From the NCBI GenBank assembly GCA_034433695.1, contig DAOUAK010000038.1, positions 2,758-66,757 on the forward strand: a stretch of 64,000 nucleotides of DNA, given 5' to 3'. The position numbers were made by a program, and so were the translations under genes. Shown here one piece after another: positions 25-20,682 of the stretch. Below the pieces are notes generated by a model. The model was not told the DNA's origin. It ran no database searches and worked only from the letters and a program-made list of their open reading frames with translations. Positions within the stretch are counted from its first letter, which is position 1. The number at the start of each line of letters is the position of its first letter. This DNA is from Chloroflexia bacterium (GTDB lineage Bacteria > Chloroflexota > Chloroflexia > DTKN01).

Positions 25-1443
25 ATGAAGACGCTCAAGATGCTTCCCCTGGTCCTGATCGGCGCGATGCTGATCGGTGTCCTGGCCGGGTGCGGCCCAC
101 AACCTACCGCCCCGGCTACGGAAAAACCGGCGGCGACCCCCGTCCCCACGGCGGCCCCTACGGCGGTTCCCACCCCGAAGCCCGTGACGCTCCGCTATGC
201 CAACTGGAACCTGGGCACGGAAGAGGAAAACAACGTCCAGCGCCAGCTGGTCAAGAAGTACATGGAACTCAACCCTCACGTGACCATCGAGTTCGTGGAC
301 ATGTCAGGCGAGGGCACGTGGGACGACAAACTGACCGCCCTAGCGGCCAAAGGCGCACTGCCCGACGTCTTCATGGCCGACAAGACTCCCCTCTACGTCA
401 AGAACGGCTGGTTGGCCGACCTGACCGAACTGGTGAGCGAGGACCCGGATTGGCAGAAGGTGCCGGAGGTACTGCGCAACGCCGTGACCTACAACGGCAA
501 GGTACTGGCTCTGCCGGCGGCGCAGTTTGTCATGGGCTATTTCGTCAATCTGGACCTCTTTGAAGCCAACAACCTGGGAGCGCCCACCTATGGCACCCCC
601 GTGGACGAGTTCTTCGCCGTGGTCACCAAGTTGACCGACGTCCAGAAAGGTCGCCTGGGCATGGACGAGATGGAATTCATCCTGGGCTGGTATCCCAGCA
701 CCCAGGACCCGACCCTGAAGTGGTTCAGTTTCGACGGCCAACACATGCACTATAACTCCGAAGCCTTCAAGGCCGGCGTGGCCAAGGCCGGCGAGATGCG
801 GCCGCATACCTGGCAGGGCCTCACCGACGAGCAGAAAGCCAACTTCAAGTCGCAGGGGCCGTGGGAACTCTTCCTGAATCAGGAATGCGGCGTCCGCTGG
901 GACGGCGGCTGGGCGGTGCCGGCCATCGCCCAGCAGGCCACCTTCAACTGGGACTTCCTGGGCATCCCCGGCGGCAACCAGGCCCTGGTGGGCGACTTTA
1001 TCGTCGTCGCCAAGACGACCGCCAACCTGGAAGAGGCCTTCAAGTTCGCCAAATGGATGACCTTCTCGCGCGAAGGTTACCTGGCCGAGGCCGAGATCGC
1101 CCGCGCGGCCGGCCAGGTGCCCACCCGCATGCCGGTTTTCGTGGACGCCGAAACCATCGACCTGTACCTGTCCTTCGTCGGCGATAAACCCGGCCTGCGC
1201 CAGGCCTTCGAGAACCTGGACAACAGCCTGCTCGAATCGCTGGCCAAGATCGTGCCCGGGTACGTCGCCGCCCGCTGGGAAGGTAAACCCGGCATCGACA
1301 TCGGCGAGGACAAGGATGTGAACATGTGGTACATGTTCAACTTCGCCAACGAGGGCAGGTACAAGTACGAGGATTATGCAGCCCGGTTGGAAGAGTTCGC
1401 CAACCGCCTGCTCGATGAGGCCCGCGCCGAACTCAAGCCTTAA
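25..1443 (+). CDS. ABC transporter substrate-binding lipoprotein (family 1, carbohydrate-type)
   Basis: ATG at 25 preceded by GGAGG. Signal peptide with lipobox LAGCG. Pro/Thr-rich linker, then ~420-aa SBP-like fold. First gene of the sugar ABC operon. Confidence 0.85.
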
Positions 1444-4413: not shown

Positions 4414-5327
4414 CTACCCTCAGAACCGCCTTCCGCCGATGGCTGGCCCGGGAAGGAAGCGCTTACGCCTTCATCTTCCCCTACGCCATCCTGTTCATGG
4501 TCTTTATCGTCATTCCGGTGGCGATAGCCGTCGTCCTCTCGTTCACTTATTTCGATACCATCCAATTCCCGACCTTCATCGGCCTGCGCAACTATATCAC
4601 TCTGCTGACCCAGGATGACATTTTCATGAAACATGTCCTGCCCAACACCATCGAGTTTGCGGTCATTGTTGGGCCGGGCGGCTACATACTGGCCTTTTTG
4701 CTGGCCTGGATGCTGGCGCAACTGCCGCGCCTCCCCCGTACCATCCTGGCGTTGATCCTGTATTCGCCCTCGATGACCTCGGCGGTGACGATGGCCGTCG
4801 TCTGGCAAACCCTTTTCAGCGGCGACCAGAACGGCTATCTGAACAGTTTCCTGCTGAACCTGGGCATCATCCAGGAACCGGTGCAGTGGCTGCAATCGCC
4901 TCAGTACCTGATGCCGATTATGATCGTCGTCACGCTGTGGAGCAGCATGGGGGTGGGCTTCCTGGCCATGCTGGCCGGCATTCTGGACATCAACCCCGAA
5001 CTTTATGAGGCCGCCGCCGTCGATGGTCTGAGCAACCGCTGGCAGCAGATCTTTTACATCACCATCCCCTCGATGAAGCCGCAGATGCTCTTTGGGGCGG
5101 TGATGGCCATCGTCGGCACGTTCCAGGCCGGCTCGATCGGCGTGGCTCTTTCGGGGTCCAACCCCACCCCGCAATATGCCGGCCAGCTCATCGTCAACCA
5201 CATCGAGGACTATGGTTTCCTGCGCTACGAGATGGGCTACGCGGCAGCCGTCTCGGTGGTCCTGCTCCTGATGGTGCTGTTCTTCACCCGCCTGGCCAAC
5301 CGGCTGTTCGGCAGCGAGGAACGATAG
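4410..5327 (+). CDS. Carbohydrate ABC transporter permease (MalF/UgpA-like)
   Basis: ATGA overlap with the upstream stop. Six TM segments and an EAA-like loop. Typical binding-protein-dependent permease. Confidence 0.85.
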
Positions 5328-5350
5328 CGTATACGGCGGTAGGGCTACCC

Positions 5351-6259
5351 ATGAGACTCCGTTTCCTTCAGAAATCGTACAGCCTGCGCAACAGCGGCAT
5401 CAATCCATCCGGCTTCCACCCCAGCCAGATTCAGTTCTACATCATCCTGGCTCCGGTGGTGGCCTTTATGCTCCTGCCGATCATCTTTATTATCTCCAAC
5501 GCCTTCAAGCCGCCCGAGGAACTCTTCGCCTACCCGCCGCGCTTCTTCGTCGTCAACCCAACGCTGAAGAACTTTACCGACCTTTTTACCCTGATGACCG
5601 TCTCCGAGGTGCCGGTCAGCCGCTACCTGTTCAACAGCATTGTCCTCACGGCCATCTCCATAGGGGCTTCCATTGCCATCTCCAGCACGGCGGCCTATGC
5701 CCTCTCCAAGAAGCGCTTCAGGCTCAAGCAGACGCTCTTTGCCGTCAACACCGTGGCGCTGATGTTCGTGCCCGTTGCCGTTACCATCCCGCGCTTCCTC
5801 ATCATCGCCCGTCTGGGACTGATCGATACCTTCTGGGTACACATCCTCCCTGCACTGGCCATGCCGGTCGGACTCTTCCTGCTCAAGCAATTTATCGACA
5901 CCATCCCGGACGAGGTCATCGAGGCAGCCCAGATCGACGGTGCCTCCGACCTGCAGATCTACTGGCGCATCGTCCTGCCGCTGGTCAGACCGGCCCTGGC
6001 CACCATCGCCATCCTGACCTTCCAGGCCACCTGGAACAATGCCGATACCTCGGCCATGTATATCAACATCGAAAACCTCAAGACCTTCGCCTACTATCTC
6101 AGCACACTTTCGACGACAACCGCCGGGGCGAACGTGGTGGCCGGCCAGGGTATGGCCGCAGCGGCAGCACTGATCATGTTCGTGCCTAACCTGATCATGT
6201 TCCTCCTCCTGCAAAGTCAGGTCATGAGCACGATGTCGCATTCGGGGCTAAAGGGATGA
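5351..6259 (+). CDS. Carbohydrate ABC transporter permease (MalG/UgpE-like)
   Basis: Multi-TM protein with the conserved loop [16 protein letters not shown], which is EAA-motif-like. Confidence 0.85.
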
Positions 6260-8271
6260 AACGTCTGCCGCTCTTCCTCGTTCTGGTGCTCTTATTGCTC
6301 CTCCTGATTCCGGGCGTGCCCGCGCAGGCCCTGACCCCTTATACGACCTGGGCGCTGGGGCCGGGCGGCCGACTCTACCTGACACAGGACGCCTACGTTC
6401 CCGTTTCGGAGGTGCCCCTGCCCTTGTCCGGTGCGGAGGATATGTTCATCACCGCAGAAGGAGACCTTTACATCGCCGATACGGGCAACGGCCGCATCCT
6501 GCGCCTGGACAGCAACTGGCAGATCGTGGCAACCTACGGCGAAGGGCTGCTCCGAAAGCCGAACGGCCTCTTTGTGGACCCCGAGGGAACGATGTACATC
6601 GCCGACGCCGGAAACAACTCCATCGTCATCCTCGACCATGACGGCACACTGGCCACGAGTTTTGGCCGGCCGAACGAGGCGCTCTTTGGCCGCAGGAACG
6701 AGTTCCTGCCTCGCAAAATCGCCGTAGACACGCGCCAGAACCTCTATATCGTCAGCGAGGGTTCGACCGATGGCCTGGTGATGATGACCCGAGACGGACG
6801 CTTCATCGGCTACTTTGGCGCGAACCCGGCCACGATGTCCTTGAAGATGCTCTTGCAGCGCCTGTTCCTGACGAGGGAGCAACTGGCGCAATTCATCAAG
6901 AACGAGGCGGCCTCGCCCTCCAATGTAGCCATCGACAGCGAAGGGATGATCCTTACCGTAACCTCGGGCACGGCCCGCGAGCGCAGCATCCGCCGTTTCA
7001 CCGTCGCCGGCCACAATATCTTCCCCGAAATCTACGGCTCGACGACCTTTCGCGACCTTCATGCCAGTCCGAACGGCCTGGTCACAGCGGTAGATGCCGA
7101 GGGACGAATCTACGAGTACGATCGGAAAGGAATGCTCCTCTTTGTCTTCGGGGCCCAGGACAAAGGGGAGCAACGCCTGGGACTGCTCCGCAACCCCACC
7201 GCCATCGAACGCTATCAGGACTGCATCTATGTGCTGGACAAGGACAAGAACGCCATCGTCGTCTACCGGGAAACGAGGTTTGCCCGTCTGGTCCATGACG
7301 GTGTGCGGCTGTATGTGGAGGGCTTTTACAGCGAGGCACGACCTTACTTCGAGGAGGTGCTGCGCTATAACGGCTTATTCATCATGGCCTACCAGGCCAT
7401 CGCCGATGCGTACTTCAAGGAGGGCGACTATATCCGCGCCCTGACCTATTATCGCTATGCCGAAGACCGCCGGGGCTATTCCGAAGCCTTCTGGGAACTC
7501 CGCAACGTCGTCCTGCAACAATACCTGGCAACCGGCCTCCTCGGGCTACTCGGCCTCCTCGTTGCCCAGGGGGCCCTCAAACGCCTCGACCGCCGCTACG
7601 CCTGCTTCGCTCCGGTACGGCGTGGACTGGCCTGGCTGTGCCGCCGCAAACTCGTGGACGACTTTCTTTTCCTCTTTCGCTTCATCAAACACCCCGCCGA
7701 TAGTTTCTATTACATCAAGGCCAAACAGCGCGGCAGCCTGGCGTTTGCCCTCCTGATCTATCTGTGGGTGGTCATCGTGCGGGTGCTGACCCCTTACCTG
7801 ACCGGATTTATCTTCAATCCCTACGCCAACCCGGGAGAAATCCGCGCCGAAAACGAGGTCGTCTACACCCTCCTCTTCCTTCTGCTCTGGAATGCGGCGA
7901 ACTACCTGGTCTCGACCATCAGTGAGGGTGAGGGCCGCGTCCGGGACGTCGTCATCGGCAGCGCCTACGCGCTCTCCCCTTACGCCATTTTTGCGCTGCC
8001 AATCGCCCTCCTCTCCAACGTCCTGAGCGCCAACGAGGCCTTTTTTTACACCTTTTCCATGAACCTGGTATGGGCCTGGACCGGGCTGATGCTTTTCCTG
8101 ATGGCCAAGGAAATCCATAACTACTCCTTCGGCGAAACGGTCCGTAACGTCCTGCTGACCCTCTTCACGATGGCTATGGCGCTGCTGGCCGGCTATATCC
8201 TGTATGTGCTGGCCTCCCAGTTCTATGACTTTATCTCGGCCATCTGGCGGGAGGCACAGTTACGTGGTTAA
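6256..8271 (+). CDS. Membrane protein with N-terminal signal, NHL repeats, TPR-like region and C-terminal Yip1-like multi-TM domain
   Basis: NHL-like repeats [14 protein letters not shown] and [17 protein letters not shown]-like segment ([22 protein letters not shown]). C-terminal ~250 aa with 5-6 hydrophobic helices. ATGA overlap with the upstream permease. Confidence 0.6.
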
Positions 8272-8272
8272 G

Positions 8273-10411
8273 ATGAACAGGGCCTTGACCTTTTTCCTGC
8301 TTCTCCTCTTCCTTCTGCCGGCGCCGGCCGTATTCGCCGCGCCTTCTCCAGACGCTATCCCGGGAACCTATACCCTGGTTGCTGAAAACGAGAACTTTCG
8401 CCTATACGTCAATCCGGAAACCCTGGCTTTCAAGGTGCTGGACAAGCGTAGCGGTTACCTCTGGCATTCCAGCCTGGACGAAAAACTCCCCGAGGACCGC
8501 CTGAACAGGTCCTGGCTCGCTTTCGCCCAGAGCGGGTTCAGCGTGGACTGTCTGGACTGGAAAGCCAACACTCGGCGGGTTTCTATCGCCAGCGCCGAGC
8601 ACACGATGGAGGTCCGGCCCATTGAAAACGGCCTCCAGGCCCAGGTCACCTTTAGCGATGTGGCCATTTCGGTGGGGTTGCGCCTGATCCTGGAGGAAAC
8701 CGGCGTGCGGGTCGAGGTGCCATTCGAGACCATCCGTGAGGACGGCGACTTTCGCCTGGGCATGCTCCATCTTTACCCCTGGATGGGCGCGACGCGCGGC
8801 GACGAAACGCCCGGTTATATGTTCATCCCCGACGGCTGTGGGAGCCTCATCCACTTCGCCGCCGAGACAAAAGCCCGGAACATGTACTATGGCCGCTACT
8901 ACGGCATCGACCTGGGCATGGTGTCCCACCTGCCTTTCGATCCGGCCATCCGCCGGCCTTATCCCATCTCCATCCCGGTAATCGGCATGGTGCATGGCGA
9001 GGGGCAGAACGCCTACCTGGCCGTCCTGGAAAAGGGCGCGTCCTATGCCGAAATCCAGGCCCATCCCTCCGGCATCCTCACCAACTTTAACTTTCTCTAC
9101 AACGCCTTCATCTACAACGAGAGTTACTTCCAGCGCACCAGCCGGGCCGGCGATGGCGTGACCGTCGTTCAGCCCCGCACCAACCGCTTCGACATCGTCA
9201 TGCACTACCGCTTCCTCACCGGCCGGGAGGCCGACTATGTCGGCATGGCCCGCAGTTACCGGCAGTACTTGCTCGAAAAAGGGCTACTTCGCCGACAGCC
9301 GCTGCCCTCCGACGGCATCGGTATCCGTCTGGAGTTCCTGGCCGCCGAGCAGGAGAAAATCCTGTTCTGGAACCGCACCATTCCGATGACGACCCTGCCG
9401 CAGATGGAGCAAATCCTGGCCGAACTGGACGTTACGAACCCTCAGGTCATCTACTATGGCTGGCAGCCCGGCGGCGCTTCGGCCATGCCGCCTGCCTACC
9501 TGGCCCTGGATGGCAGCCTGGGCACCCTGGCCGACCTGGGCAGGGTGGCCGAACAGGTCGCTCGCCGTGGCGGGGCCTTCGCCTTGTACCTCGATCCCCT
9601 GGCGGCGATCCGGGATCAGGGGGGGTACTCGCGCTACGACCTGGCGGTAGCCATCACCGGCGATTACCCGCAAGGCTACCGGCGGGGAAAGCCCAATTTT
9701 TTCCTCAACCTTCCGGCCCTGGAAGCGCGTCTCGGTTCTCTCGGCCGGGAGATACAGAGCAAGGTCCCGGCCGGCCTGGCCCTGGATAACATCGGCACTA
9801 CCCTGTACTCCGACTTTCGCCAGGACAACCTGCTCAACCGGGAGGAGGCGATCGACGCCTACCGTTCCCTCCTGGCCGCCATACCCGTCCCGCTGGCCCT
9901 GTACATGCCGAACGACTACCTCTTCGCCTATGCCCGGGCCTATTACGATATCCCCATCGCCGACAGCGGCTACATCTATACCACGGCGACGGTGCCTTTC
10001 CTGCAAATCGTCCTTTCCGGCTATATGCCCTACTACGGCGAGGCCCTCAACTTTTCTCCTGACGTGCGCCAGGACCTGCTCCGACACGCCGAGTACGGTG
10101 TCTATCCCTCCTTCTTCCTTACCTACGAGGAAACCGCCCGCATCCTGAAGACCCGGTCGAACTGGATTTACGTCTCCGCCTACCGCCAACTGGAAGCGGG
10201 GATCGAAGATAGTTATGCCTGGCTGAATGCCCTGCTGTCCCCGGTACAGGGGGCCAGCATTGTCGGACATGCACAGGTCGCCCCCCAGGTGTTTGCCACC
10301 ACCTACAGCAACGGCAAGCAGATTCTGGTCAACTATAGCGAGCACCCCGTCTCACTCTACGGCCTCACCGTTCCGGCCCGGGATGCCATCTTGAGGGAGG
10401 TAATGCCATGA
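8273..10411 (+). CDS. Hypothetical secreted protein (712 aa), possible glycan-active enzyme
   Basis: Start at MNRALTFFLLLLFLLPAPAVFAAPSP (signal peptide), 1 nt after the upstream stop. No confidently recognised catalytic motif. Embedded between two ABC permease pairs. Confidence 0.5.
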   Translation: MNRALTFFLLLLFLLPAPAVFAAPSPDAIPGTYTLVAENENFRLYVNPETLAFKVLDKRSGYLWHSSLDEKLPEDRLNRSWLAFAQSGFSVDCLDWKANTRRVSIASAEHTMEVRPIENGLQAQVTFSDVAISVGLRLILEETGVRVEVPFETIREDGDFRLGMLHLYPWMGATRGDETPGYMFIPDGCGSLIHFAAETKARNMYYGRYYGIDLGMVSHLPFDPAIRRPYPISIPVIGMVHGEGQNAYLAVLEKGASYAEIQAHPSGILTNFNFLYNAFIYNESYFQRTSRAGDGVTVVQPRTNRFDIVMHYRFLTGREADYVGMARSYRQYLLEKGLLRRQPLPSDGIGIRLEFLAAEQEKILFWNRTIPMTTLPQMEQILAELDVTNPQVIYYGWQPGGASAMPPAYLALDGSLGTLADLGRVAEQVARRGGAFALYLDPLAAIRDQGGYSRYDLAVAITGDYPQGYRRGKPNFFLNLPALEARLGSLGREIQSKVPAGLALDNIGTTLYSDFRQDNLLNREEAIDAYRSLLAAIPVPLALYMPNDYLFAYARAYYDIPIADSGYIYTTATVPFLQIVLSGYMPYYGEALNFSPDVRQDLLRHAEYGVYPSFFLTYEETARILKTRSNWIYVSAYRQLEAGIEDSYAWLNALLSPVQGASIVGHAQVAPQVFATTYSNGKQILVNYSEHPVSLYGLTVPARDAILREVMP

Positions 10412-11286
10412 CATCATCCGGCCGGCCCCGCTTCACCCTTCGCCTGCGCCAGGCCCTGCAAGGCTATCTTTTCGTGGCCATCTGGATCATCGGCTTTGCC
10501 CTCTTCGCTCTGGCTCCGCTCGTTCAAACCTTCCTCTACAGCCTGAACCGGGTCATCGTCTCGGCCACCGGCGTGGAGCAGACCTTCGTTGCCTGGCAGA
10601 ACTATACCAAAGCCCTGTTCACCGACCCCACCTTCATCGAATTGCTGATCGGATACATCCTGGAGACGCTTATCTCTGTGCCGATCATCATGATCTTTTC
10701 CCTGATCATCGCTCTGCTCCTCAACCTGAAACTGCCGCTCAGGGGCATCTTTCGCACGATCTTCTTCCTGCCGGTCGTCATCACCAGCGGGCCGGTGATT
10801 CGTGAACTCGTCTCGCAGGGGGCGACCGCCGCACCGCAGATCGCACAGTCGCCGGTGGTGCTGGATTTCCTGGCCCAGTTGCCGGAGGTGCTTCGCGGGC
10901 CGGCCGAGTACCTGCTGACTTCGTTCATCCTGATTCTCTGGTTCTCGGGCGTCCAGATTCTGATCTACCTGGCCAGCCTGCAGCGAATCGACCGCAGCCT
11001 CTATGAAGCAGCCGCCATCGACGGCGCTTCGGCCTGGGAAATGTTTTGGAAGATCACCTTGCCGTCGCTTTCTTCGACCAACGTGGTGGTAGCCATCTAT
11101 ACCATCGTTATCCTTTCGCACTTTCCCGAGAACAAGGTGGTGCGCTACATTTATACCCAGACCTATGACATCAAGGGTGGCATCGGCTACGCCAGCGCGA
11201 TGTCGTTCCTGTACCTGGCCGCCCTGGTGCTCGTCCTGCTCATCGCCTACATTGTCCTGTCTCTGCGCGCCAGGAAAGTACGATAG
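10408..11286 (+). CDS. Carbohydrate ABC transporter permease (UgpA-like)
   Basis: ATGA overlap with the upstream gene. Multi-TM permease with an AAAIDGASAWEMFWKITLP loop. Confidence 0.85.
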   Translation: MTSSGRPRFTLRLRQALQGYLFVAIWIIGFALFALAPLVQTFLYSLNRVIVSATGVEQTFVAWQNYTKALFTDPTFIELLIGYILETLISVPIIMIFSLIIALLLNLKLPLRGIFRTIFFLPVVITSGPVIRELVSQGATAAPQIAQSPVVLDFLAQLPEVLRGPAEYLLTSFILILWFSGVQILIYLASLQRIDRSLYEAAAIDGASAWEMFWKITLPSLSSTNVVVAIYTIVILSHFPENKVVRYIYTQTYDIKGGIGYASAMSFLYLAALVLVLLIAYIVLSLRARKVR

Positions 11287-11312
11287 TCGGAATCGGCCTG
11301 CAAGGTGTACCG

Positions 11313-12314
11313 ATGGACCTGCATCCCATAAGGAAAACGAAATTTGGGGATCGGAGGGGGCCTCGCCTCGAGGAACTCCTCTCTCGCCTCGCCCCCCTTG
11401 GGGACAGGATTCGCGGCTTGCTATTCGGCACGCGCTCCGGTTACGGCCTGATTTTCACCGTCCTCGCCTACGCCTTGCTCATCATTATCGGCTTTGTGTA
11501 CCTCTACCCGCTCCTCTTTATGCTGGTTACCAGCCTGAAAAGTCCCACCGACCTGCTCAACCCAATGGCGCAATGGATACCCAACGAGTTGTACCTGGGC
11601 AACTATGCCAAAGCCTACCGCGTCCTGAATTACCCTTCCACCTTGCTCTCCTCCATTCTGGTCAGCGTTGTACCTTCGGTGATTCAGACCATCGTTTGCT
11701 CGGTCGTGGGCTACGGCCTGGCCCGCTACCGGTTCCCCGGCAAGCACCTGCTTTTCCTGTTGATCCTGGCCACCTTTCTCATCCCGCCCCAGAACACCGT
11801 CATCCCGCAGATGCTCACTTACCGGCAGTTCGGTCTGCTGGGGAGCATCTGGGCGATGATCCTGCCGGCCCTGTGCGGACAGGGCTTTCGTAGCGCTATC
11901 TTCATCCTCATCTTTTACCTGTCTTTCCTTACTCTGCCCAAAGCGCTCGAAGAGGCGGCCCGTCTGGACGGAGCATCCGAGGCCCGAATTTTCCTCCAGA
12001 TCGCCGTTCCGAACGTCATTCCGGCTTATATCGTCTCCCTGATCTTTTCCATCGTCTGGTACTGGAACGAGACCTACCTGACCGTCATCTTCCTGGAGGG
12101 CGGCATCCAAACCCTGCCGATGCAACTTTCCAAGTTCGCCCAGGCCTATGAGAACCTCTATCCGGCCGGCATGGTCAACATCTTCGACCGTCTGAACGAG
12201 GCGGTCAAACTCAGCGGCACCTTCCTCAACATCTTGCCCCTTCTGCTGATGTATTTTGTCCTGCAAAGGTGGTTCGTCGAATCGATCGAAAGGACGGGTA
12301 TCACCGGTGAATAG
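11313..12314 (+). CDS. Carbohydrate ABC transporter permease (UgpE-like)
   Basis: Multi-TM permease with an AARLDGASEARIFLQIAVP loop. Confidence 0.85.
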   Translation: MDLHPIRKTKFGDRRGPRLEELLSRLAPLGDRIRGLLFGTRSGYGLIFTVLAYALLIIIGFVYLYPLLFMLVTSLKSPTDLLNPMAQWIPNELYLGNYAKAYRVLNYPSTLLSSILVSVVPSVIQTIVCSVVGYGLARYRFPGKHLLFLLILATFLIPPQNTVIPQMLTYRQFGLLGSIWAMILPALCGQGFRSAIFILIFYLSFLTLPKALEEAARLDGASEARIFLQIAVPNVIPAYIVSLIFSIVWYWNETYLTVIFLEGGIQTLPMQLSKFAQAYENLYPAGMVNIFDRLNEAVKLSGTFLNILPLLLMYFVLQRWFVESIERTGITGE

Positions 12315-13668
12315 ACGGCTTGCTCTCCTCCTGGCGCTCTTTCTCATGTCTTCCTGTGGCCCGCTGGCTCCGTCTCCGCAGGCGGGAGGTGTCAGGCCGG
12401 CTGGCGTGCCCTCTCAGACGCTTGTTCCCGCACCTACCCCAACGTGGACGCCTGCTCCTACGCAAACCCCCGTCCTCGTTGCCATCGAAGAGGTGATCGA
12501 GGGGGAAATGTGCGGAGCCTTTGACTTCTTCTGGGAACAGGCCAACACCGACCCTGAAAGCCCCGGCTACGGCCTTATCCGAGACCGTTATCCCGGTTCG
12601 GAGGGCATCGCCAGCATCGCCTCGGTCGGTTTCGGCCTCACTGCCTATGTGATTGGGGCGGAAAAGGGCTATGTCACGCGCGAACAGGCCTGCGAACGCG
12701 TGGCCGGCACGCTGGACACCCTCCTGGCCCTCGAGCGCGAACACGGCTTCTACTTCCACTTCCTCGATATGCGAACCGGCAGGCGTGCCTGGCAAAGTGA
12801 GGTCTCCAGCATCGACACCGCCATCCTGTTGATGGGTGTCTTGAGCGCCGGGGAGTACTGCCGCGAGAGCCAGGCCAAGGCCGAAGAAATATACACCGGC
12901 GTGGACTGGCCCTGGTTCGTGGACCCCGATCGGAACATGTTCTACATGGCTTACCGTCCGGAAAAGGGCTTTGAGGGTTATTGGGACTTTTACGCCGAGC
13001 AACTGATGCTCTACGTCCTGGCTGCCGGCTCGCCTACCCATCCGGTTGACCCGGTGGTGTACTATACCTTTACCCGCCACTCGGCCAAATACGGGGAGGG
13101 GCAGCCCTTTATTCACTCCTGGTTCGGCTCGATCTTTACCTACCAGTACAGCCATGCCTGGATCGACTTCCGTGGTCTCACCGACCGTCGGGGCGTGAAC
13201 TGGTTCGACAACTCGGTCGAGGCCTCCCTGGCGCATTACCGCTTCGCCGTGGCGATGGACGAAAAGTACCTGACGCTGGGTCCGCAGGCCTGGGGGTTGA
13301 CCGCCTGCGACAGCCCCCACGGGTACGAGGGACGTTACGGTGCACCCCCCTCCGGCTACGACTACAGACAGCACCTGGTGGATGATACGATTGCCCCCGC
13401 CGGAGCCATCGGCTCCATCCTCTTCCTGCCGGAAGAGGCCAAACAGGCCATGGCCTACTATTACTCCTTGGAAAAACTCCGGGGGCCGTACGGCTTTCAG
13501 GATGCCTTTAACCTGACCGAGAACTGGTTCTCCAGCGATGTCATCGGCATCGACAAGGGCATCTCCCTCTTGATGCTGGCGAATTATCAAAACGACCTGG
13601 TCTACGCCGTTACGATGAAGAATGTGCACATCCAGAATGGACTGGAAAGGCTGGGAATCACGAGATGA
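12307..13668 (+). CDS. Glucoamylase-like (alpha/alpha)6 glycoside hydrolase lipoprotein, GH144/DUF3131-like (putative endo-beta-1,2-glucanase-type)
   Basis: GTG start overlapping the permease stop. Lipoprotein signal LLLALFLMSSCG. Motif FFWEQANTDPESPGYGLIRDRYPG...SVGFGLTAY is shared with the paralog at 14654. Confidence 0.5.
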   Translation: MNRRLALLLALFLMSSCGPLAPSPQAGGVRPAGVPSQTLVPAPTPTWTPAPTQTPVLVAIEEVIEGEMCGAFDFFWEQANTDPESPGYGLIRDRYPGSEGIASIASVGFGLTAYVIGAEKGYVTREQACERVAGTLDTLLALEREHGFYFHFLDMRTGRRAWQSEVSSIDTAILLMGVLSAGEYCRESQAKAEEIYTGVDWPWFVDPDRNMFYMAYRPEKGFEGYWDFYAEQLMLYVLAAGSPTHPVDPVVYYTFTRHSAKYGEGQPFIHSWFGSIFTYQYSHAWIDFRGLTDRRGVNWFDNSVEASLAHYRFAVAMDEKYLTLGPQAWGLTACDSPHGYEGRYGAPPSGYDYRQHLVDDTIAPAGAIGSILFLPEEAKQAMAYYYSLEKLRGPYGFQDAFNLTENWFSSDVIGIDKGISLLMLANYQNDLVYAVTMKNVHIQNGLERLGITR

Positions 13669-14657
13669 TCACCATCAAAGACGTTGCCCAACGTGCCGGG
13701 GTCAGCATCACCACCGTTTCTTATGTGCTTAACGGCAAGGGGAACATCAGCGAAGCCACACGCCGGGCGGTTCTGGCTGCGGCGGAGGAACTCAACTACC
13801 ATCCTAACGCCCATGCCCGCCACCTGAAGAAGCGGAGAACGCGCACCATCGGTGCCTTTGTCGGCTCTCTGGGTGGCCTGTTCTACGAGGAGATTCTGGA
13901 AGGCGTCCACGCCGCAATCTTGCAAACGGACTATGAACTCATCGTCGTCCCGGAGACACATGCTCCCAGCCGTATTCTCTGCAACCGCCAGGTGGATGCC
14001 GCCATTGTCTTCGACGTCAAGATTCCGGACGATCTGCTGGTCAGCCTGGCCTGGAAACGCTTCCCCATCGTTACCTTCGACCGCTACCTGGAAGCCGAAT
14101 ACGTCTTTCCTCTCCTCGTCGATAACCCTAGCGGTACACGCGAGGTGTTCTACCACCTCTACAACCAGGGAGTCCGGCACTTGGCCTTTGTGGCCGGCGC
14201 TCCCGATTCGTTCGACAATGCCGAGCGCAAGGAAACCTTTCTCGGCGAAGCCGAAAAGCGTGGCCTCAGCGTCCGTTGCTATCAAGGGAACTTTACCGAG
14301 ACCTCCGGCTACCAGATTGCCCGGGAAATTATCGCTTCCCGAGACCTTCCCGAAGCAGTTTTCTGCGCCAACGATCAGATGGCAATCGGCTTCCTGAAGG
14401 CCATGCACGAACACGGCCTGCGCGCCCCCCAGGATATCGCTCTGGTCGGCTTCGACGACATCCCGGTCGCCTGCTACCTGCAACCGCCGCTTTCCACCGT
14501 CCACGTCTCGCGCACGGAATGGGGCCGACAGGCGGTGGTTCGGCTGATCGACTTTCTGGAGCACGATATCTCCTTTCCCCGAGAGCGAATTCCGGTTCGC
14601 TTCGTTGCCCGCGAATCTTCGCTGATCTCACCGCAGTTCCCACGGCCATTGCCATGA
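13665..14657 (+). CDS. LacI-family transcriptional regulator
   Basis: N-terminal HTH MITIKDVAQRAGVSITTVSYVLNG plus a periplasmic-binding-protein-like sugar-binding domain. ATGA overlaps on both sides. Confidence 0.9.
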   Translation: MITIKDVAQRAGVSITTVSYVLNGKGNISEATRRAVLAAAEELNYHPNAHARHLKKRRTRTIGAFVGSLGGLFYEEILEGVHAAILQTDYELIVVPETHAPSRILCNRQVDAAIVFDVKIPDDLLVSLAWKRFPIVTFDRYLEAEYVFPLLVDNPSGTREVFYHLYNQGVRHLAFVAGAPDSFDNAERKETFLGEAEKRGLSVRCYQGNFTETSGYQIAREIIASRDLPEAVFCANDQMAIGFLKAMHEHGLRAPQDIALVGFDDIPVACYLQPPLSTVHVSRTEWGRQAVVRLIDFLEHDISFPRERIPVRFVARESSLISPQFPRPLP

Positions 14658-15946
14658 AAGCAGATACCCTCCTGGCCGAAGAAATTCGGGGGGCGGTCCG
14701 GTTCTTCCTGGAGCATACCAATCTTCACCCGGAAAGCCCCGGCTTTGGCCTGACCGTGGATTCGACCAAGCGGCCGGCCAGGGCTTCCATCGCTTCGACC
14801 GGCTTTGCCCTGACCGCCTGGGTGATCGCGGCCGAACGGGGCCTTATCCCGCAACAAGAGGCCCGCCGAATCGTCCACGGCACGCTCCACACCCTGTTCC
14901 ACCATGCCGACCAGCACCGCGGCTTCTTTGCCCACTTTTTGCACATCGACAGCGCCGGCCGCTTCGGCAAAAGCGAGTACAGCACCATCGACACCGCCCT
15001 CTGCCTGAACGGCGTCATCACCGCAGCCGCATACTTTCACCACGATGCGACCATCGCCGAACTGGCCGCAGGCATCCTCGATCGCGTGGACTGGGATTTC
15101 ATCGTCTTTGAGCGAGATCGAGAGGCCCTCTTCCGTATGGCCTACAACCCTGACCCGGACGGCGATTACGTCAGCGGGCAACCGGGCTTCATCGGCCAGT
15201 GGGATATGGCCGCCGAGCAGAAGATGATGTACCTCCAGGCCTCCCTGCACCTCGAGGCCGGCCTCGCCCGCCGGCTCTACCGGGGCTTTCGCCGCGACAT
15301 CGGCTACCACGAAGGCCGGCCGATCATCATCAACCCCGGCGGCAGCCTCTTTGCCTACCTGTTCAGCGAGGCCTGGCTGGATACCGCCCGCTACCTCGAT
15401 CCCGACGGCGTGGACTGGTTCGAGAACACCCGCCGCGCGGCCCTGGCCAACCGGGCTTTCTGCATCGAGAACTCGACGTGCTTCCGGACTTATCACGCCC
15501 GCAGTTGGGGATTGAGCGCCGGGGATAGCCCGCACGGCTACGACGTCTTTGGCGCCCCTCCCTGCCTGGGCGAACCCTATCACGATGGAACGGTCTCCAT
15601 CTATGCGGCCGTCGCTTGCCTGCCCTTCCTGCCCGAGGAGATCCTGGAAATGATGACCTACCTCCACCGCCATCAGCCGCGCACCTGGGGCCGGTACGGC
15701 TTCTTCGACGCCTACAACCTGGATGTCTCGCCTCCCTGGTACAGCCGGGCCGTTTATGCCATCGACAAGGGCTGCTCGATGATCATGACCGAAAACTATC
15801 TCAGCGGCCTGGTGTGGAGTGTTTACACAAGCAGTCCTTATATCCGCCAGGCTCTCCATACCCTGGGCTTCACCGAACGGGCCGGCCGGCTCCTATCAGG
15901 GCAAAACTCTGGAACAGCATCTCCCGCAGACGGATCGATTCCCTAG
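14654..15946 (+). CDS. Glucoamylase-like (alpha/alpha)6 glycoside hydrolase, GH144/DUF3131-like paralog (no signal peptide)
   Basis: Motif FFLEHTNLHPESPGFGLTVD...STGFALTAWVIAAERG is paralogous to 12307..13668. ATGA overlap with the lacI stop. The 14276 ORF extension is a frame artefact. Confidence 0.5.
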   Translation: MKADTLLAEEIRGAVRFFLEHTNLHPESPGFGLTVDSTKRPARASIASTGFALTAWVIAAERGLIPQQEARRIVHGTLHTLFHHADQHRGFFAHFLHIDSAGRFGKSEYSTIDTALCLNGVITAAAYFHHDATIAELAAGILDRVDWDFIVFERDREALFRMAYNPDPDGDYVSGQPGFIGQWDMAAEQKMMYLQASLHLEAGLARRLYRGFRRDIGYHEGRPIIINPGGSLFAYLFSEAWLDTARYLDPDGVDWFENTRRAALANRAFCIENSTCFRTYHARSWGLSAGDSPHGYDVFGAPPCLGEPYHDGTVSIYAAVACLPFLPEEILEMMTYLHRHQPRTWGRYGFFDAYNLDVSPPWYSRAVYAIDKGCSMIMTENYLSGLVWSVYTSSPYIRQALHTLGFTERAGRLLSGQNSGTASPADGSIP

Positions 15947-15958
15947 AAGGAGGATGCC

Positions 15959-18265
15959 GTGAACCTGACCTTCCGTAAGGGCCTCTTCTGGCTGGATGAC
16001 CGCCCGCTCATACTCCAGGCCGGCGAATTCCATTACTTCCGCACTCCCCCCGACCGGTGGGAGCATCGCCTCGGCCTGCTCAAAGCGGCCGGCTTCAACG
16101 CCGTTGCCTCCTATATCCCCTGGCGCTGGCACGAGCCTGAGGAGGGGCATTTCGACCTGGACGGCCACAGCCACCCGATGCGCAACCTGGCCGGCTTTCT
16201 CGACCTGGCTGCCGAGATGGGCCTTTTCATCATTGCCCGCCCCGGCCCCTACATCATGGCCGAGACGATCAACGAGGGCATCCCCGATTGGGTCTTTTCC
16301 CACTATCCACAGGTCGCTTTCATCGACCAGCACGGCCGGCCGCAGAACATCGTCAGTTACCTGCACCCCGATTTCCCGACCTGCGCCGCCCGCTGGTTGC
16401 GCGCCGTCTTCGGCGTGCTCGCGCCGCGCCAGGTCACACGCGGTGGGCGTATCGTGCTCGTGCAATTGGATAACGAGATGGGCATGATGCACTGGGTACG
16501 TAACATCCTGGACATCCACCCCGATACCCTGGAGCGTTTCGCGACCTGGCTCCGGCAGACCTACGGCGAACAGTTGGCGGAGCGTTACCCGACGACGAAT
16601 CTGGTTTCCTTCCTGCGCCAGGGCATCACCCAGGCGCGGAGTCCCCATGCCGCCCGCACGGTGGAGGATTACCGCCGCTTCTTCCGTGGCTACCTGCGTG
16701 AGTATGCCGCCTTTCTGCTGAACGAAGCGCAGAAAAACGGCCTGGAAGTGCCGCCGGTGATCAACGTCCACGGCTTTGCGAACGGCGGCAAGACCTTTCC
16801 CATCGGGCTTTCCCAACTGGTCGAGGTGATGGAACTGCCCGGCGTGCTCACCGCCACCGATGTCTATCCCGGCTTCATCGGCGAGGGCAACTATCATGAA
16901 CTGCTGCTGGTCAACGAGATGACGCGCGCCCTCCAGAACCCACAGCAACCGCTCTTTTCCATCGAGTTCCAGGCCGGCGGCAACCAGGACTTTGGCGGGG
17001 CGCAGACTTCCTTCTTCGATCTGCATACCCGTCTGAGCCTCTCCGTGGGGATGCGCGCCATCAACCACTACCTCTTCTTCGATGGGGAGAACGACCCCCT
17101 GCTCAGCCCGGTGCGGCGCCACGATTGGGGACACCCCGTGCGCAAAGACGGCAGCCTGCGCCGCCACTACCACCGCTACCCCCAACTTTCCCAGACTCTG
17201 GCGGCCTATGGGGAGGCCCTTGCCCTCGCCCGCCCGCAGACCGTCACCGCCGTCGGCTTCCGGCTGGACGACTTTTCGACCGAGGTCAACACGCCCGCCA
17301 CCGAAGAGGCCACCCGAATTATCACCCACCAGCGCGAGGTGATCCTCTTCGACTTTATCGCCCGTGGTCTGGCGCTGACCCACCGGCCGTTCCGCGCCCT
17401 GGAACTGGGCCGCGCCGCGCTCGATGTACGGGAAACTCCCACCCTCTGGGTGATGAGCGAGCGGCGCTGTGAGGCCGCGATCCAGCGGAAGTTGGTCGAT
17501 TACGTCCGCTCCGGTGGCCGCCTGGCCCTCATCGGCCGGCTGTGTCTGGAGGATGGAGACGGCCGGCCCTGTACATTGTTGCGCGACGCCCTCGGCCTGA
17601 CGGCCGTCCAGAGCGACCCGCCCTTTACCCCCAGCCACATCGACGCCTTTGGCTACACCGACATACCCGTCTCGTTTGTGGAAACCTACCGCGGCGTGTT
17701 CGACCGGGTCATCGCCACCCGGCATGGCGAGACGGTGGGCTTTGTCAGGGCGCTGGGCAAGGGGCAAGTCCTTGTCCTTGGGGCAGCGCTCGAGGCCAAT
17801 ACCCTGGAAGACCTCGACCTCCTGCACCGGATGGCGCTGGAAATAGGCTGCCCCCCCGCCTTCACCCTGAGCGAGTGGGCCGACGTGCGCCTGAGCCGGG
17901 GCGAAAAGGGCGGTTTTCTTTTCATCAACAACTACCAGGATGACCCGATCGAGACCTGCATCGCCTGGCAGGGACAACCCCTCTTTGGCGGGAACGCCAT
18001 CTATCTCCCGGCCCGCCAGGGCGCCATCCTGCCGCTGGACTGGCAGGTAGCCGAAGGGGTTACCCTGCACTATGTCACAGCGGAGGTACGCCGTGTGGAA
18101 CGCCGGCCGGAGTCGCTCATTCTGGGACTGGCCCAGGACGCTTTCGCGGCCGAGTTGAGCCTGAGTGGCTGGGAATGTCCAGAGGCGCAACGCGTATCGG
18201 AGTCTGTCCCTCCCCGTCTGTTCCTGCGGGGGAGGGATGGGCAAATCGTTCTGTACAGACAATGA
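15959..18265 (+). CDS. Glycoside hydrolase family 35 beta-galactosidase-like enzyme
   Basis: GH35 motifs YIPWRWHEPEEGHFDL, RPGPYIMAE, GIPDW and VLVQLDNEMG (compare human GLB1). GTG start with GAAGGAGG RBS. Confidence 0.8.
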   Translation: MNLTFRKGLFWLDDRPLILQAGEFHYFRTPPDRWEHRLGLLKAAGFNAVASYIPWRWHEPEEGHFDLDGHSHPMRNLAGFLDLAAEMGLFIIARPGPYIMAETINEGIPDWVFSHYPQVAFIDQHGRPQNIVSYLHPDFPTCAARWLRAVFGVLAPRQVTRGGRIVLVQLDNEMGMMHWVRNILDIHPDTLERFATWLRQTYGEQLAERYPTTNLVSFLRQGITQARSPHAARTVEDYRRFFRGYLREYAAFLLNEAQKNGLEVPPVINVHGFANGGKTFPIGLSQLVEVMELPGVLTATDVYPGFIGEGNYHELLLVNEMTRALQNPQQPLFSIEFQAGGNQDFGGAQTSFFDLHTRLSLSVGMRAINHYLFFDGENDPLLSPVRRHDWGHPVRKDGSLRRHYHRYPQLSQTLAAYGEALALARPQTVTAVGFRLDDFSTEVNTPATEEATRIITHQREVILFDFIARGLALTHRPFRALELGRAALDVRETPTLWVMSERRCEAAIQRKLVDYVRSGGRLALIGRLCLEDGDGRPCTLLRDALGLTAVQSDPPFTPSHIDAFGYTDIPVSFVETYRGVFDRVIATRHGETVGFVRALGKGQVLVLGAALEANTLEDLDLLHRMALEIGCPPAFTLSEWADVRLSRGEKGGFLFINNYQDDPIETCIAWQGQPLFGGNAIYLPARQGAILPLDWQVAEGVTLHYVTAEVRRVERRPESLILGLAQDAFAAELSLSGWECPEAQRVSESVPPRLFLRGRDGQIVLYRQ

Positions 18266-18311
18266 AACGGTGACTCTCTAGCAATGGCATAGGCCCATCA
18301 AGGAGCACACA

Positions 18312-20657: not shown

Positions 20658-20682
20658 GTTTCGCTGGGGCGGCAGCGCATCC

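What the first reader, a model, noticed from the sequence alone, without database searches (positions are those of the whole stretch)
12307..15946. Two divergent glucoamylase-like (GH144/DUF3131-type) paralogs flanking a LacI regulator, one lipoprotein and one cytoplasmic
Both proteins share FFWEQANTDPESPGYGLIRD...SVGFGLTAYVIGAEKG versus FFLEHTNLHPESPGFGLTVD...STGFALTAWVIAAERG. One has a lipobox and the other has no signal peptide. This suggests sequential extracellular endo-cleavage followed by intracellular trimming, with the LacI gene translationally coupled between them. The GH144 assignment is from motif memory.
Basis: partly seen in the sequence, partly recalled or inferred. Interest (0 to 1): 0.5.

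Follow-up and report, generated by a model that had tools for sequence, protein, structure and literature searches.

The report
Surface and cytoplasmic beta-1,2-glucanase gene pair
Two related enzymes that cut the rare bacterial sugar polymer beta-1,2-glucan, one tethered outside the cell and one kept inside, sit on either side of a repressor gene in a sugar-uptake operon shared by many uncultured Chloroflexi; it is a new, uncharacterised example of a known kind of system.

Summary
Window 12307-13668 (A, 453 aa) and 14654-15946 (B, 430 aa) both match Pfam PF10091, and their best solved relatives are GH144 beta-1,2-glucanases. A is 44% identical to XcSGL, B 33%, and A and B are 39% identical. 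The GH144 acid Glu, the candidate base, and the clan-defining Phe and Tyr are kept in 50/50 A and 81/81 B orthologs. A has a lipoprotein signal and a Pro/Thr linker; B has no signal peptide in any ortholog. The LacI gene overlaps both neighbours by ATGA.

The pair is the core of a locus conserved across more than 100 related loci, almost all labelled Anaerolineae or other Chloroflexota: GH94 phosphorylase (just outside the window), two binding proteins, four permeases, an NHL-Yip1 protein, DUF5696, A, LacI, B, a GH35 most similar to the beta-1,2-glucosyltransferase IaSGT, and a GH3 beta-glucosidase. A LacI operator (AGTGAAACGTTTCACT) lies upstream of GH94 in relatives.

The DUF3131 label is wrong. 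Verdict: new member of a known kind, modest interest.

Elsewhere in the window, an alpha-2-macroglobulin gene has a conserved in-frame TGA at its thioester cysteine. This is a possible selenocysteine and looks more surprising than the finding itself.

The parts
25..1443 (+). SBP1: solute-binding lipoprotein of an ABC sugar importer (signal [23 protein letters not shown])
   Evidence: PF01547/PF13416. N-terminus. It is 75% identical (E 5e-212) to the solved structures 22HH-22HL, whose ligand is unknown to me. In relatives it always follows GH94.
1519..4413 (+). SBP2L: 964-aa secreted or anchored protein. The N-terminal ~540 aa have no known domain; the C-terminal part is a solute-binding domain.
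   Evidence: PF01547/PF13416 on residues 563-841. The C-terminal domain is weakly similar to MalE3 (1e-12) and to the sophoro-oligosaccharide-binding protein Lin1841 5YSB (3.8e-11). Sequence.
4389..5327 (+). ABC permease 1
   Evidence: PF00528; syntenic in all related loci.
5351..6259 (+). ABC permease 2
   Evidence: PF00528.
6256..8271 (+). Membrane protein with signal peptide, NHL repeats, TPR and a C-terminal Yip1 domain; role unknown
   Evidence: PF01436, PF04893 and TPR hits; conserved position in all loci.
8273..10411 (+). Secreted DUF5696 protein; predicted GH129/GH101-like glycosidase fold
   Evidence: PF18952 at 4e-166. AF2 model with pLDDT 72 and pTM 0.75. Foldseek best hits are GH129 5OPQ (1e-25, TM 0.60/0.64), GH129 NagBb and GH101. 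No sequence hit in the PDB.
10408..11286 (+). ABC permease 3
   Evidence: PF00528.
11313..12314 (+). ABC permease 4; its stop overlaps the start of GH144A
   Evidence: PF00528; junction sequence.
12307..13668 (+). GH144A: lipoprotein beta-1,2-glucanase homolog (signal and lipobox, ~45-aa Pro/Thr linker, catalytic domain)
   Evidence: PF10091 at 2e-64. XcSGL 8XUL at 1e-67 with 44% identity. Catalytic residues kept in 50/50 orthologs. Lipobox conserved.
13665..14657 (+). LacI-family repressor; ATGA overlaps at both ends
   Evidence: PF00356 and PF13377; junctions. Its likely operator, AGTGAAACGTTTCACT, is found upstream of GH94 in 43 related loci and is absent from the window.
14654..15946 (+). 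GH144B: cytoplasmic beta-1,2-glucanase homolog (catalytic domain only, no signal peptide)
   Evidence: PF10091 at 5e-65. PDB hits 4GL3 (6.5e-36), XcSGL (2.9e-34) and CpSGL (3.8e-28). Residues kept in 81/81 orthologs. AF2 model with pLDDT 88; best fold match XcSGL at TM 0.81. No signal peptide in 81/81.
15959..18265 (+). Cytoplasmic GH35 most similar to the beta-1,2-glucosyltransferase IaSGT
   Evidence: PF01301 and PF22369. Best PDB hit is 7VKW at 6e-73. The IaSGT residues Y52, E102, N175, E176, N275, E343 and Y378 are all conserved; R349 is replaced by Asn and L100 by Met (residue list from PMC8861115).
18312..20420 (+). Cytoplasmic GH3 beta-glucosidase
   Evidence: PF00933, PF01915 and PF14310. 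PDB hits JMB19063 (1e-179), BT_3567 5XXL (3e-176) and Lin1840 (2e-144). BT_3567 and Lin1840 are the two GH3 enzymes known to be associated with beta-1,2-glucan.

Best explanation
The two genes encode GH144 beta-1,2-glucanases that act on opposite sides of the membrane. They sit in a LacI-controlled operon for using beta-1,2-glucan or sophoro-oligosaccharides, in an Anaerolineae (Chloroflexota) bacterium.

Proposed sequence of events:
1. GH144A is exported and lipid-anchored through Cys17. A Pro/Thr linker holds it off the cell surface, where it cuts extracellular linear (and possibly cyclic) beta-1,2-glucan endolytically into oligosaccharides.
2. The lipoprotein SBP1 and the large SBP2L capture these oligosaccharides, and the two permease pairs import them.
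3. In the cytoplasm, GH144B cuts imported chains that are long enough to span subsites -3 to +2. It has the catalytic domain only, with an XcSGL-type active site.
4. The GH35 IaSGT-like transglycosylase, the GH3 beta-glucosidase and the GH94 phosphorylase finish the conversion to glucose and glucose-1-phosphate. The GH94 gene lies just upstream of the window in relatives.
5. LacI represses the operon from a palindromic operator upstream of GH94 and is presumably released by a sophoro-oligosaccharide.

Shown here: family membership, conserved catalytic residues, fold, signal-peptide pattern, gene order and its conservation, and the operator motif in relatives.

Inferred: the substrate, endo action, chain-length preferences, the inducer, and the roles of DUF5696 and the NHL-Yip1 protein.
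For: Family and fold:
- PF10091 is the only Pfam hit for both proteins.
- All strong PDB hits are GH144.
- A is 44% and B 33% identical to the characterised XcSGL. A and B form sister clades on the XcSGL branch.
- The B model matches XcSGL at TM 0.81, then other GH144 structures, then other SGL-clan families.

Active site: CpSGL E211 (acid), E142 (base candidate; Asp here, as in XcSGL), F268 and Y330 are invariant in 50 A and 81 B orthologs (one B has Tyr for F268). Residue definitions come from PMC12102758.

Topology: lipobox in A and no signal in B. GH35 and GH3 also start directly in their catalytic domains.

Context points to beta-1,2-glucan from four independent sides:
- The GH35's best solved relative is IaSGT, with all -1 subsite and catalytic residues kept.
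- The GH3 is closest to the BT_3567 and Lin1840 group.
- An unrelated 38%-GC organism pairs a lipoprotein-like GH144 and a signal-less GH144 with LacI, GH3 and a protein carrying the SOGP Pfam domains.

The same enzyme set (two GH144, GH35 SGT, GH94, ABC binding protein) defines the published Ignavibacterium album cluster (PMC8861115).

Conservation: 80 genome loci and about 45 metagenome loci keep the gene set.

Regulation: one copy of AGTGAAACGTTTCACT (at most 2 mismatches) sits roughly 30-90 nt upstream of GH94 in 40 of the 43 loci that carry the motif, within 2.07 Mb of sequence searched.
Against: - No biochemical data exist for any Chloroflexota member. A and B are only 27-44% identical to characterised enzymes.
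- SBP1 is not a detectable homolog of the known sophoro-oligosaccharide-binding protein Lin1841. SBP2L resembles it only weakly.
- A pure beta-1,2-glucan model does not explain the secreted DUF5696 protein, whose fold resembles families of alpha-acting glycosidases, or the NHL-Yip1 protein.
- The transporter/DUF5696 module also occurs in a 32%-GC organism with no GH94 gene in the 10 kb upstream of it.
- B has 22 clade-fixed differences from A. At most of these A agrees with XcSGL, for example Tyr to Ala next to the acid Glu and His to Glu in YSHAW. The GSPTH motif is missing, so B's specificity may have shifted.
- The operator and the GH94 gene are not inside the window.
Confidence: 0.78

Rival explanations
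1. B is not an endo-glucanase. It is an exo-acting or short-chain enzyme, for example a sophorohydrolase like BDI_3064, that trims imported oligosaccharides. This is what the first reader meant by 'trimming'.
For: GH144 already contains one exo-type enzyme, BDI_3064, which matches B at 5e-28. B carries 22 clade-fixed substitutions relative to A and XcSGL, some next to the catalytic Glu. ABC importers of this class usually carry short oligosaccharides; Lin1841 binds Sop3-5 (PMC12369401).
Against: BDI_3064 is 712 aa with an extra N-terminal region, and only its C-terminal half aligns. B is a bare 430-aa catalytic domain whose best fold match is the endo-enzyme XcSGL. The residues said to require binding at both -3 and +2 (Tyr and Glu) are invariant in B (PMC12102758). 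GH3, GH94 and GH35 already cover exo-type steps.
Confidence: 0.15
2. The locus targets a glycan other than beta-1,2-glucan. This Chloroflexota branch of GH144 would then have a shifted specificity.
For: Identity to characterised GH144 enzymes is low to moderate. SBP1 is unrelated to Lin1841. DUF5696 has a GH129/GH101-like fold, families that act on alpha-linked or anhydro-galactosides. The transporter module also occurs without GH94 elsewhere.
Against: To my knowledge every characterised GH144 enzyme, and all hydrolases of the SGL clan, are specific for beta-1,2-glucan (PMC12102758). Four neighbouring enzyme types independently point the same way. The sugar-contacting clan residues are invariant.
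Confidence: 0.07
3. The conserved LacI-B-GH35 triad is mainly a regulatory device. B, and/or the GH35 transglycosylase, would convert imported sugars into the true LacI inducer, as LacZ makes allolactose. Alternatively they would remodel beta-1,2-oligosaccharides made inside the cell by reverse phosphorolysis by GH94. In either case they would not be bulk catabolic enzymes.
For: LacI-B-GH35 stay adjacent in nearly all of the 80 loci, even where the transporter operon is inverted. IaSGT is a transglycosylase with unusual kinetics whose physiological role is unknown (PMC8861115). GH94 phosphorylases are reversible (general knowledge).
Against: Nothing in the sequences requires this reading. Co-transcription with a repressor is common for ordinary catabolic genes. 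The catalytic machinery of B is fully conserved, as expected for a working hydrolase.
Confidence: 0.08

Closest known systems
XcSGL (XCC2207), GH144 endo-beta-1,2-glucanase of Xanthomonas campestris (PDB 8XUL; PMC12102758)
   Same: It is the best solved relative of A (1e-67, 44% identity) and the best fold match of B (TM 0.81). Both share the same active-site variant: Glu acid, Asp at the CpSGL-E142 position and Ser at the D139 position. Both are single catalytic (alpha/alpha)6 domains.
   Different: XcSGL comes from a diderm proteobacterium and carries a C-terminal extension (539-aa chain). A is a lipoprotein with a Pro/Thr linker in a Chloroflexota bacterium, a phylum generally regarded as single-membraned. 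B has no export signal at all and carries 22 clade-specific substitutions.
CpSGL (Cpin_6279), founding GH144 endo-beta-1,2-glucanase of Chitinophaga pinensis (PDB 5GZH/5GZK)
   Same: Same family and fold. E211, F268 and Y330 are conserved.
   Different: Only 27-32% identical. CpSGL D135 and D139, which matter for its activity, are not acidic in A, B or XcSGL.
Ignavibacterium album SGL gene cluster with IaSGT (IALB_1177-1187; PMC8861115)
   Same: Same parts list: two GH144 genes, a cytosolic GH35 transglycosylase, a GH94 resembling the C-terminal domain of cyclic glucan synthase, and an ABC importer.
   Different: I. album is diderm, and its cluster is proposed to use a TonB-dependent transporter with GH144 enzymes outside and in the periplasm. 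Here one GH144 is cytoplasmic. The binding protein is not Lin1841-like. There are two permease pairs plus DUF5696 and NHL-Yip1 proteins, and a LacI gene lies inside the operon.
Listeria innocua SOGP cluster (Lin1839 phosphorylase, Lin1840 GH3, Lin1841 binding protein)
   Same: A monoderm design: ABC import of sophoro-oligosaccharides, then cytoplasmic GH3 and GH94.
   Different: The Listeria cluster has no GH144 glucanase and no GH35. Its GH94 is of the SOGP type, whereas the GH94 here is closer to the cyclic-glucan-synthase domain.
BDI_3064, exo-type GH144 sophorohydrolase of Parabacteroides distasonis (PDB 5Z06)
   Same: Same catalytic domain family.
   Different: It has an additional N-terminal region (712 aa) that neither A nor B possesses.

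Membership tests
GH144 (Pfam PF10091) | Significant profile and full-length sequence similarity to characterised GH144 enzymes | tested here: met
   PF10091 at 2e-64 (A) and 5e-65 (B). XcSGL at 1e-67 and 2.9e-34, CpSGL at 7e-44 and 3.8e-28, with alignments spanning the whole domain.
GH144 / SGL clan (GH-S) | Clan-defining Glu (acid), Phe and Tyr (XcSGL E239/F286/Y367 = CpSGL E211/F268/Y330) | tested here: met
   Conserved in A and B of the window, in 50/50 A orthologs and in 81/81 B orthologs (one B has Tyr for Phe). Residue equivalences come from Table S3 of PMC12102758.
GH144 | Acidic residue at the candidate general-base position (CpSGL E142) | tested here: met
   Asp in all A and B orthologs, as in XcSGL.
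GH144 | (alpha/alpha)6-barrel fold | tested here: met
   Tested for B only: AF2 model with pLDDT 87.8 and pTM 0.90. The top nine Foldseek hits are all GH144 structures (TM 0.74-0.81). A was not modelled; its fold is inferred from 44% identity to 8XUL.
GH144 | Anomer-inverting hydrolysis specific for beta-1,2-glucan | not testable with these tools
   Requires recombinant enzyme and substrate.
DUF3131 (Pfam PF11329) | Match to the PF11329 profile | tested here: not met
   No hit at E<=0.01 for either protein.
GH162 (fungal beta-1,2-glucanase) | Sequence similarity to TfSGL | tested here: not met
   No phmmer hit to 6IMU chains. Only a distant fold match (E 3e-7, TM 0.60).
Bacterial lipoprotein (A) | Positively charged N-region, hydrophobic core and a lipobox ending in Cys within the first 35 residues | tested here: met
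   VNRRLALLLALFLMSS-C17. Canonical lipobox in 41/50 orthologs. Lipidation itself is not testable, and no LipoP or SignalP was available.
LacI/GalR repressor | N-terminal HTH plus a periplasmic-binding-protein-like effector domain, and a palindromic operator | tested here: met
   PF00356 at 6e-22 and PF13377 at 5e-34. The 16-bp palindrome AGTGAAACGTTTCACT is found in 43 related loci and lies upstream of GH94 in 40 of them. No copy lies inside the window, because the window starts 24 nt before SBP1.
IaSGT-type GH35 beta-1,2-glucosyltransferase (neighbouring gene) | Catalytic Glu pair and -1 subsite residues Y52, E102, N175, N275, Y378; Arg349 at subsite +1 | tested here: inconclusive
   All seven -1 subsite and catalytic residues are conserved. 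Arg349 is Asn, and the paper says this position varies among homologs. Transferase versus hydrolase activity cannot be told from sequence.

The most novel reading that the evidence does not exclude
B and its many signal-less relatives would be the first intracellular endo-beta-1,2-glucanases. Together with the IaSGT-like GH35 and the GH94 phosphorylase they would form a cytoplasmic cycle of disproportionation, phosphorolysis and cleavage for beta-1,2-oligosaccharides, analogous to the MalQ/MalP maltodextrin system. The cycle would be fed by an unusual double ABC importer (a giant binding protein, an NHL-Yip1 membrane protein and a secreted GH129-like DUF5696 enzyme of an undescribed glycosidase family) that lets a single-membraned bacterium take up long or cyclic beta-1,2-glucans shed by proteobacteria.
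Probability: 0.2. Interest if true: 0.55.

Novelty: new member of a known kind. Interest (0 to 1): 0.35.

Why it matters
Beta-1,2-glucans are symbiosis, virulence and osmoprotection factors of proteobacteria, and little is known about who degrades them in the environment. This locus, conserved across Anaerolineae from sludge, sediments, hot springs and groundwater, would make these abundant filamentous scavengers likely consumers of that polymer.

It also supplies testable candidates:
- a surface-tethered GH144 enzyme;
- a cytoplasmic GH144 clade that, to my knowledge, has never been assayed;
- IaSGT-like GH35 enzymes in a new phylum;
- a LacI operator;
- a binding protein that already has solved structures;
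- a DUF5696 protein that looks like an undescribed glycosidase family.

The cultured Anaerolinea thermophila carries the DUF5696 gene, and a MAG assigned to that species carries the full locus (L076), so experiments are feasible. None of this overturns current understanding. It extends a known design to a new phylum.

Tried and rejected
- PF11329/DUF3131 and GH162 membership: no profile or sequence hit.
- NCBIfam: no model for either GH144 protein or for DUF5696.
- Exact-sequence lookup of B in the assembly index: not on record. The nearest public contig was reached through the DUF5696 protein instead.
- LacI operator inside the window: none with up to 3 mismatches. It lies upstream of GH94, outside the window.
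- Internal promoters or terminators in 1000-20900: no more than in shuffled sequence. This gives no evidence against a single long transcript.
- Publication or ligand for PDB 22HH-22HL: not found.
- Literature on DUF5696: none.
- Exo-type (BDI_3064-like) architecture for B: rejected, because B lacks the extra N-terminal region.
- The MAFFT column for XcSGL Y367 fell in an ambiguous loop. I relied on the CpSGL Y330 column and on the paper's structural equivalence instead.
- Whether the transporter/DUF5696 module is specific to beta-1,2-glucan: a distant copy in a 32%-GC organism has only housekeeping genes upstream, so specificity is not established.
- SECIS evidence for the alpha-2-macroglobulin TGA: Rfam, minimum-free-energy folding and RNAalifold gave nothing decisive.

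Full report
**What is at the coordinates.** On the + strand, three genes fill 12307-15946.
- A runs from GTG 12307 to 13668 (453 aa).
- A LacI-family gene runs from 13665 to 14657 (330 aa).
- B runs from ATG 14654 to 15946 (430 aa).

A's GTG overlaps the TAG of the upstream permease. Both LacI junctions are ATGA overlaps. The mechanical ORF list extends B back to a TTG at 14276, inside LacI. However, homology to GH144 begins at the Met of MKADTLL, and all 81 orthologs start there. A gene caller on a 97.4%-identical public contig (L141, GCA_037443735.1) gives the same 453, 330 and 430 aa products.

**Family.** Each protein hits a single Pfam family, PF10091 'putative glucoamylase', at 2e-64 and 5e-65. 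PF11329 (DUF3131) is not hit. Against all PDB sequences, the strong matches are exclusively GH144:
- XcSGL/XCC2207 8XUL (A 1e-67, B 2.9e-34);
- the Bacteroides structural-genomics proteins 4GL3, 3EU8 and 4QT9;
- CpSGL 5GZH/5GZK;
- the exo-type BDI_3064 5Z06.

A and B are 39% identical (E 1e-78). A is 44% and B 33% identical to XcSGL, and 32% and 27% to CpSGL. In a distance tree, A and B are sister clades on the XcSGL branch, with B on the longer branch. An AlphaFold model of B (pLDDT 87.8, pTM 0.90) matches 8XUL best (TM 0.81). The next matches are the other GH144 structures, then GH189, GH194, GH192 and GH162, which is the SGL clan order.

**Active site.** The family literature (PMC12102758) gives these key residues:
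- a Glu acid catalyst (CpSGL E211 = XcSGL E239);
- a Phe near the nucleophilic water (F268 = F286);
- a Tyr stacking at subsite -3 (Y330 = Y367);
- the most plausible general base at CpSGL E142.

In an alignment of 50 A orthologs, 81 B orthologs and three solved GH144 sequences, all four positions are invariant, apart from one Phe-to-Tyr change in a single B. The base position is Asp and the D139 position is Ser, exactly as in XcSGL. Both paralogs should therefore be active enzymes of the XcSGL type. B nevertheless has 22 positions fixed differently from A, and at most of them A agrees with XcSGL. Two examples are the Tyr before the acid Glu, which becomes Ala, and YSHAW, which becomes FSEAW. 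B's subsite preferences may therefore differ.

**Localisation.** A begins V(M)NRRLALLLALFLMSS-C, followed by about 45 residues rich in Pro, Thr and Ala.
- The same GTG-AAY-AAR/CGN start overlapping the permease stop recurs in the orthologs, each with a hydrophobic core.
- 41 of 50 orthologs have a canonical lipobox with Cys. Four more have LLTNC.
- Three have a signal without Cys. Two are truncated or unclear.

B orthologs (81/81) begin 5-25 residues before the first helix of the catalytic domain and have no hydrophobic segment. The GH35 and GH3 proteins downstream also lack signals. SBP1 has a lipobox (VLAGC). SBP2L, the NHL-Yip1 protein and DUF5696 have N-terminal signal-like segments. Chloroflexota are generally regarded as single-membraned (general knowledge), so A would sit on the cell surface.

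**The wider system.** The pair is embedded in one + strand array with mostly overlapping or tightly spaced genes:
- SBP1;
- SBP2L (964 aa);
- two permeases;
- an NHL-TPR-Yip1 membrane protein;
- a DUF5696 protein;
- two more permeases;
- A, LacI, B;
- a GH35;
- a GH3.

The GH35's best solved relative is the beta-1,2-glucosyltransferase IaSGT (6e-73). All seven -1 subsite and catalytic residues listed for IaSGT homologs are conserved. Arg349 is replaced by Asn and Leu100 by Met, both noted in the paper as variable. The GH3 is closest to a compost beta-glucosidase, to BT_3567 and, further off, to Lin1840. BT_3567 and Lin1840 are the two beta-1,2-glucan-associated GH3 enzymes.

A scan of species-representative genomes found 144 relatives of B and kept 80. 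All but one are labelled Chloroflexota, mostly Anaerolineae, at 63-76% identity. Synteny analysis shows LacI-B-GH35 together in nearly every locus with enough flank. In about 50 loci the order is that of the window. In about 21, LacI-B-GH35 is divergent from an operon that starts with a GH94 gene followed by SBP1 and SBP2L. [quoted passage not shown] About 35 metagenome loci centred on SBP1, plus L141, show GH94 immediately upstream of SBP1 on the same strand. The window therefore begins 24 nt before SBP1 and just misses this gene. The enzyme set matches the published I. album beta-1,2-glucanase cluster: two GH144, a GH35 SGT, a CGS-like GH94 and an ABC importer.

**Regulation.** The GH94-LacI intergenic regions of the divergent layout share one 16-bp palindrome, AGTGAAACGTTTCACT.
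- Across 2.07 Mb of fetched loci it occurs in 43 loci, once per locus, with at most 2 mismatches.
- In 40 of these it lies roughly 30-90 nt upstream of GH94. This holds in both layouts.
- The exceptions are one 2-mismatch hit inside a gene, and two near-identical loci where it lies next to a divergent GH3 gene, about 1.4 kb upstream of GH94.

The window contains no copy, consistent with the promoter lying upstream of its first base. No excess of promoter-like or terminator-like sites is seen inside the array. The ATGA overlaps are specific to the window's close relatives. Elsewhere the A-LacI and LacI-B junctions are mostly 0-50 nt gaps. This still implies co-transcription.

**How general is a cytoplasmic GH144?** A full HMMER scan with B against 1.84 billion cluster representatives found 2,904 relatives (425 at E<=1e-30). 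Among the best 150, at least 27 are 390-425-aa proteins that align from their first residues and lack any hydrophobic N-terminus. Many have low-GC-type composition. One of them (44% identical to B) lies in a 38%-GC contig. Its gene order is permeases, a GH144 starting MFGILGLSGC (lipobox-like), a surface Ig/CBM protein, the signal-less GH144, a GH13-family protein, LacI, GH3, and a protein with the SOGP_N and SOGP_2nd domains. The 'one outside, one inside' GH144 pair with LacI is therefore a recurring design, not a peculiarity of this window. To my knowledge none of the signal-less members has been characterised; NCBI labels them 'glucoamylase family protein' or 'hypothetical'.

1. Endo-cleavage at the cell surface by A.
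2. Capture and import by two ABC systems.
3. Cytoplasmic endo-cleavage of longer imported chains by B.
4. Completion by GH35, GH3 and GH94, all under LacI control.

The main alternatives, most of which refine rather than replace this model, are:
- B is an exo-type or short-chain enzyme (0.15). B's single-domain architecture and its conserved -3 and +2 residues argue against this.
- The locus targets a different glycan (0.07). Four independent beta-1,2-linked neighbours argue against this.
- The LacI-B-GH35 triad mainly makes the inducer or remodels internally made oligosaccharides (0.08).

Unexplained parts are the DUF5696 protein, the NHL-Yip1 protein, the 540-aa N-terminal region of SBP2L, and the need for two permease pairs.

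**Novelty and score.** This is a correct, checkable annotation of uncharacterised members of a known family, in a known type of gene cluster, in a phylum where it has not been described. No paper in the library combines beta-1,2-glucan with Anaerolinea. A specialist would find it useful rather than surprising. Interest is 0.35.

**By-products outside the finding.**
1. The DUF5696 model (pLDDT 72) has a beta-sandwich, a (beta/alpha)8 barrel and a second beta-sandwich. It matches GH129 (1e-25) and GH101 best, which suggests an undescribed glycosidase family.
2. SBP1 is 75% identical to the solved structures 22HH-22HL.
3. The alpha-2-macroglobulin gene on the - strand (26145-20683) is interrupted by an in-frame TGA at 22098-22096, exactly at the thioester Cys of the GCxEQ motif: YPFG-TGA-TEQTM.
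   - Four homologs at 55-82% identity from independent assemblies have the same TGA. They also share a nearly invariant 27-nt stretch after it.
   - 49 of 86 related protein clusters start exactly at the Met after the site, and about nine more start within some 15 residues after it. All 21 more distant sequences that span the site have Cys.
   - This Sec/Cys-like pattern suggests selenocysteine at the thioester position.
   - No SECIS structure could be demonstrated. The organism's Sec machinery cannot be checked in this window. No literature on it was found.

Noticed in passing
window 20683-26145, - strand; TGA at 22096-22098: An alpha-2-macroglobulin gene is split by an in-frame TGA exactly at the thioester cysteine of the GCxEQ motif (YPFG-TGA-TEQTMSRV). 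Four homologs at 55-82% identity from independent assemblies (L145, L146, L147, L149) have the same TGA, and about 27 nt after it are almost invariant. 49 of 86 related clusters begin at the Met just after the site, whereas all 21 more distant homologs that span it have Cys. This is a candidate selenocysteine at the thioester site. No SECIS fold, Rfam hit or covariation could be shown; the Sec machinery is not checkable here; no paper was found.
   Followed up: partly
window 8273-10411, + strand: The secreted DUF5696 protein inside the operon has no sequence relative in the PDB and no literature. Its AF2 model (pLDDT 72) has a beta-sandwich, a (beta/alpha)8 barrel and a second beta-sandwich, and matches GH129 (5OPQ, E 1e-25, TM 0.60/0.64), GH129 NagBb and GH101. 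It is probably an undescribed glycoside hydrolase family.
   Followed up: partly
window 25-1443, + strand: The SBP1 lipoprotein is 75% identical (E 5e-212) to five recent PDB entries, 22HH-22HL, named only 'Extracellular solute-binding protein family 1'. Their ligands would reveal the substrate of the whole locus. No paper was found.
   Followed up: partly
window 1519-4413, + strand: SBP2L is an unusually long (964 aa) binding protein. Its first ~540 residues match no Pfam family or PDB sequence. Its C-terminal domain is weakly similar to MalE3 and to the sophoro-oligosaccharide binder Lin1841 (3.8e-11).
   Followed up: partly
related loci, e.g. L086:7439, L098:7399, L033:8785; absent from the window: A 16-bp LacI-type palindrome, AGTGAAACGTTTCACT, occurs once per locus in 43 loci. 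In 40 of them it lies roughly 30-90 nt upstream of the GH94 gene that heads the operon. The closest relatives of the window have AGTAAAACGTTTTACT.
   Followed up: yes
window 6256-8271, + strand: A conserved membrane protein combines a signal peptide, NHL repeats, TPR and a C-terminal Yip1 domain. It sits between the two permease pairs, and its role in sugar uptake is unknown.
   Followed up: no
L142 (ENA ERZ27247376 k141_1036594), 1-14029: An unrelated 38%-GC organism has permeases, a lipobox-like GH144, an Ig/CBM surface protein, a signal-less GH144 (44% identical to B), a GH13-family protein, LacI, GH3 and a protein with SOGP domains. This is an independent occurrence of the outside/inside GH144 pair.
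   Followed up: partly
L134-L138 (JGI metagenome contigs, 32% GC): Distant copies (30-66% identity) of the SBP1-SBP2L-permease-permease-NHL/Yip1-DUF5696-permease module exist in a low-GC organism. In L134, the only one with upstream sequence examined, only housekeeping genes lie in the 10 kb upstream. The transporter/DUF5696 module may therefore not be specific to beta-1,2-glucan.
   Followed up: partly
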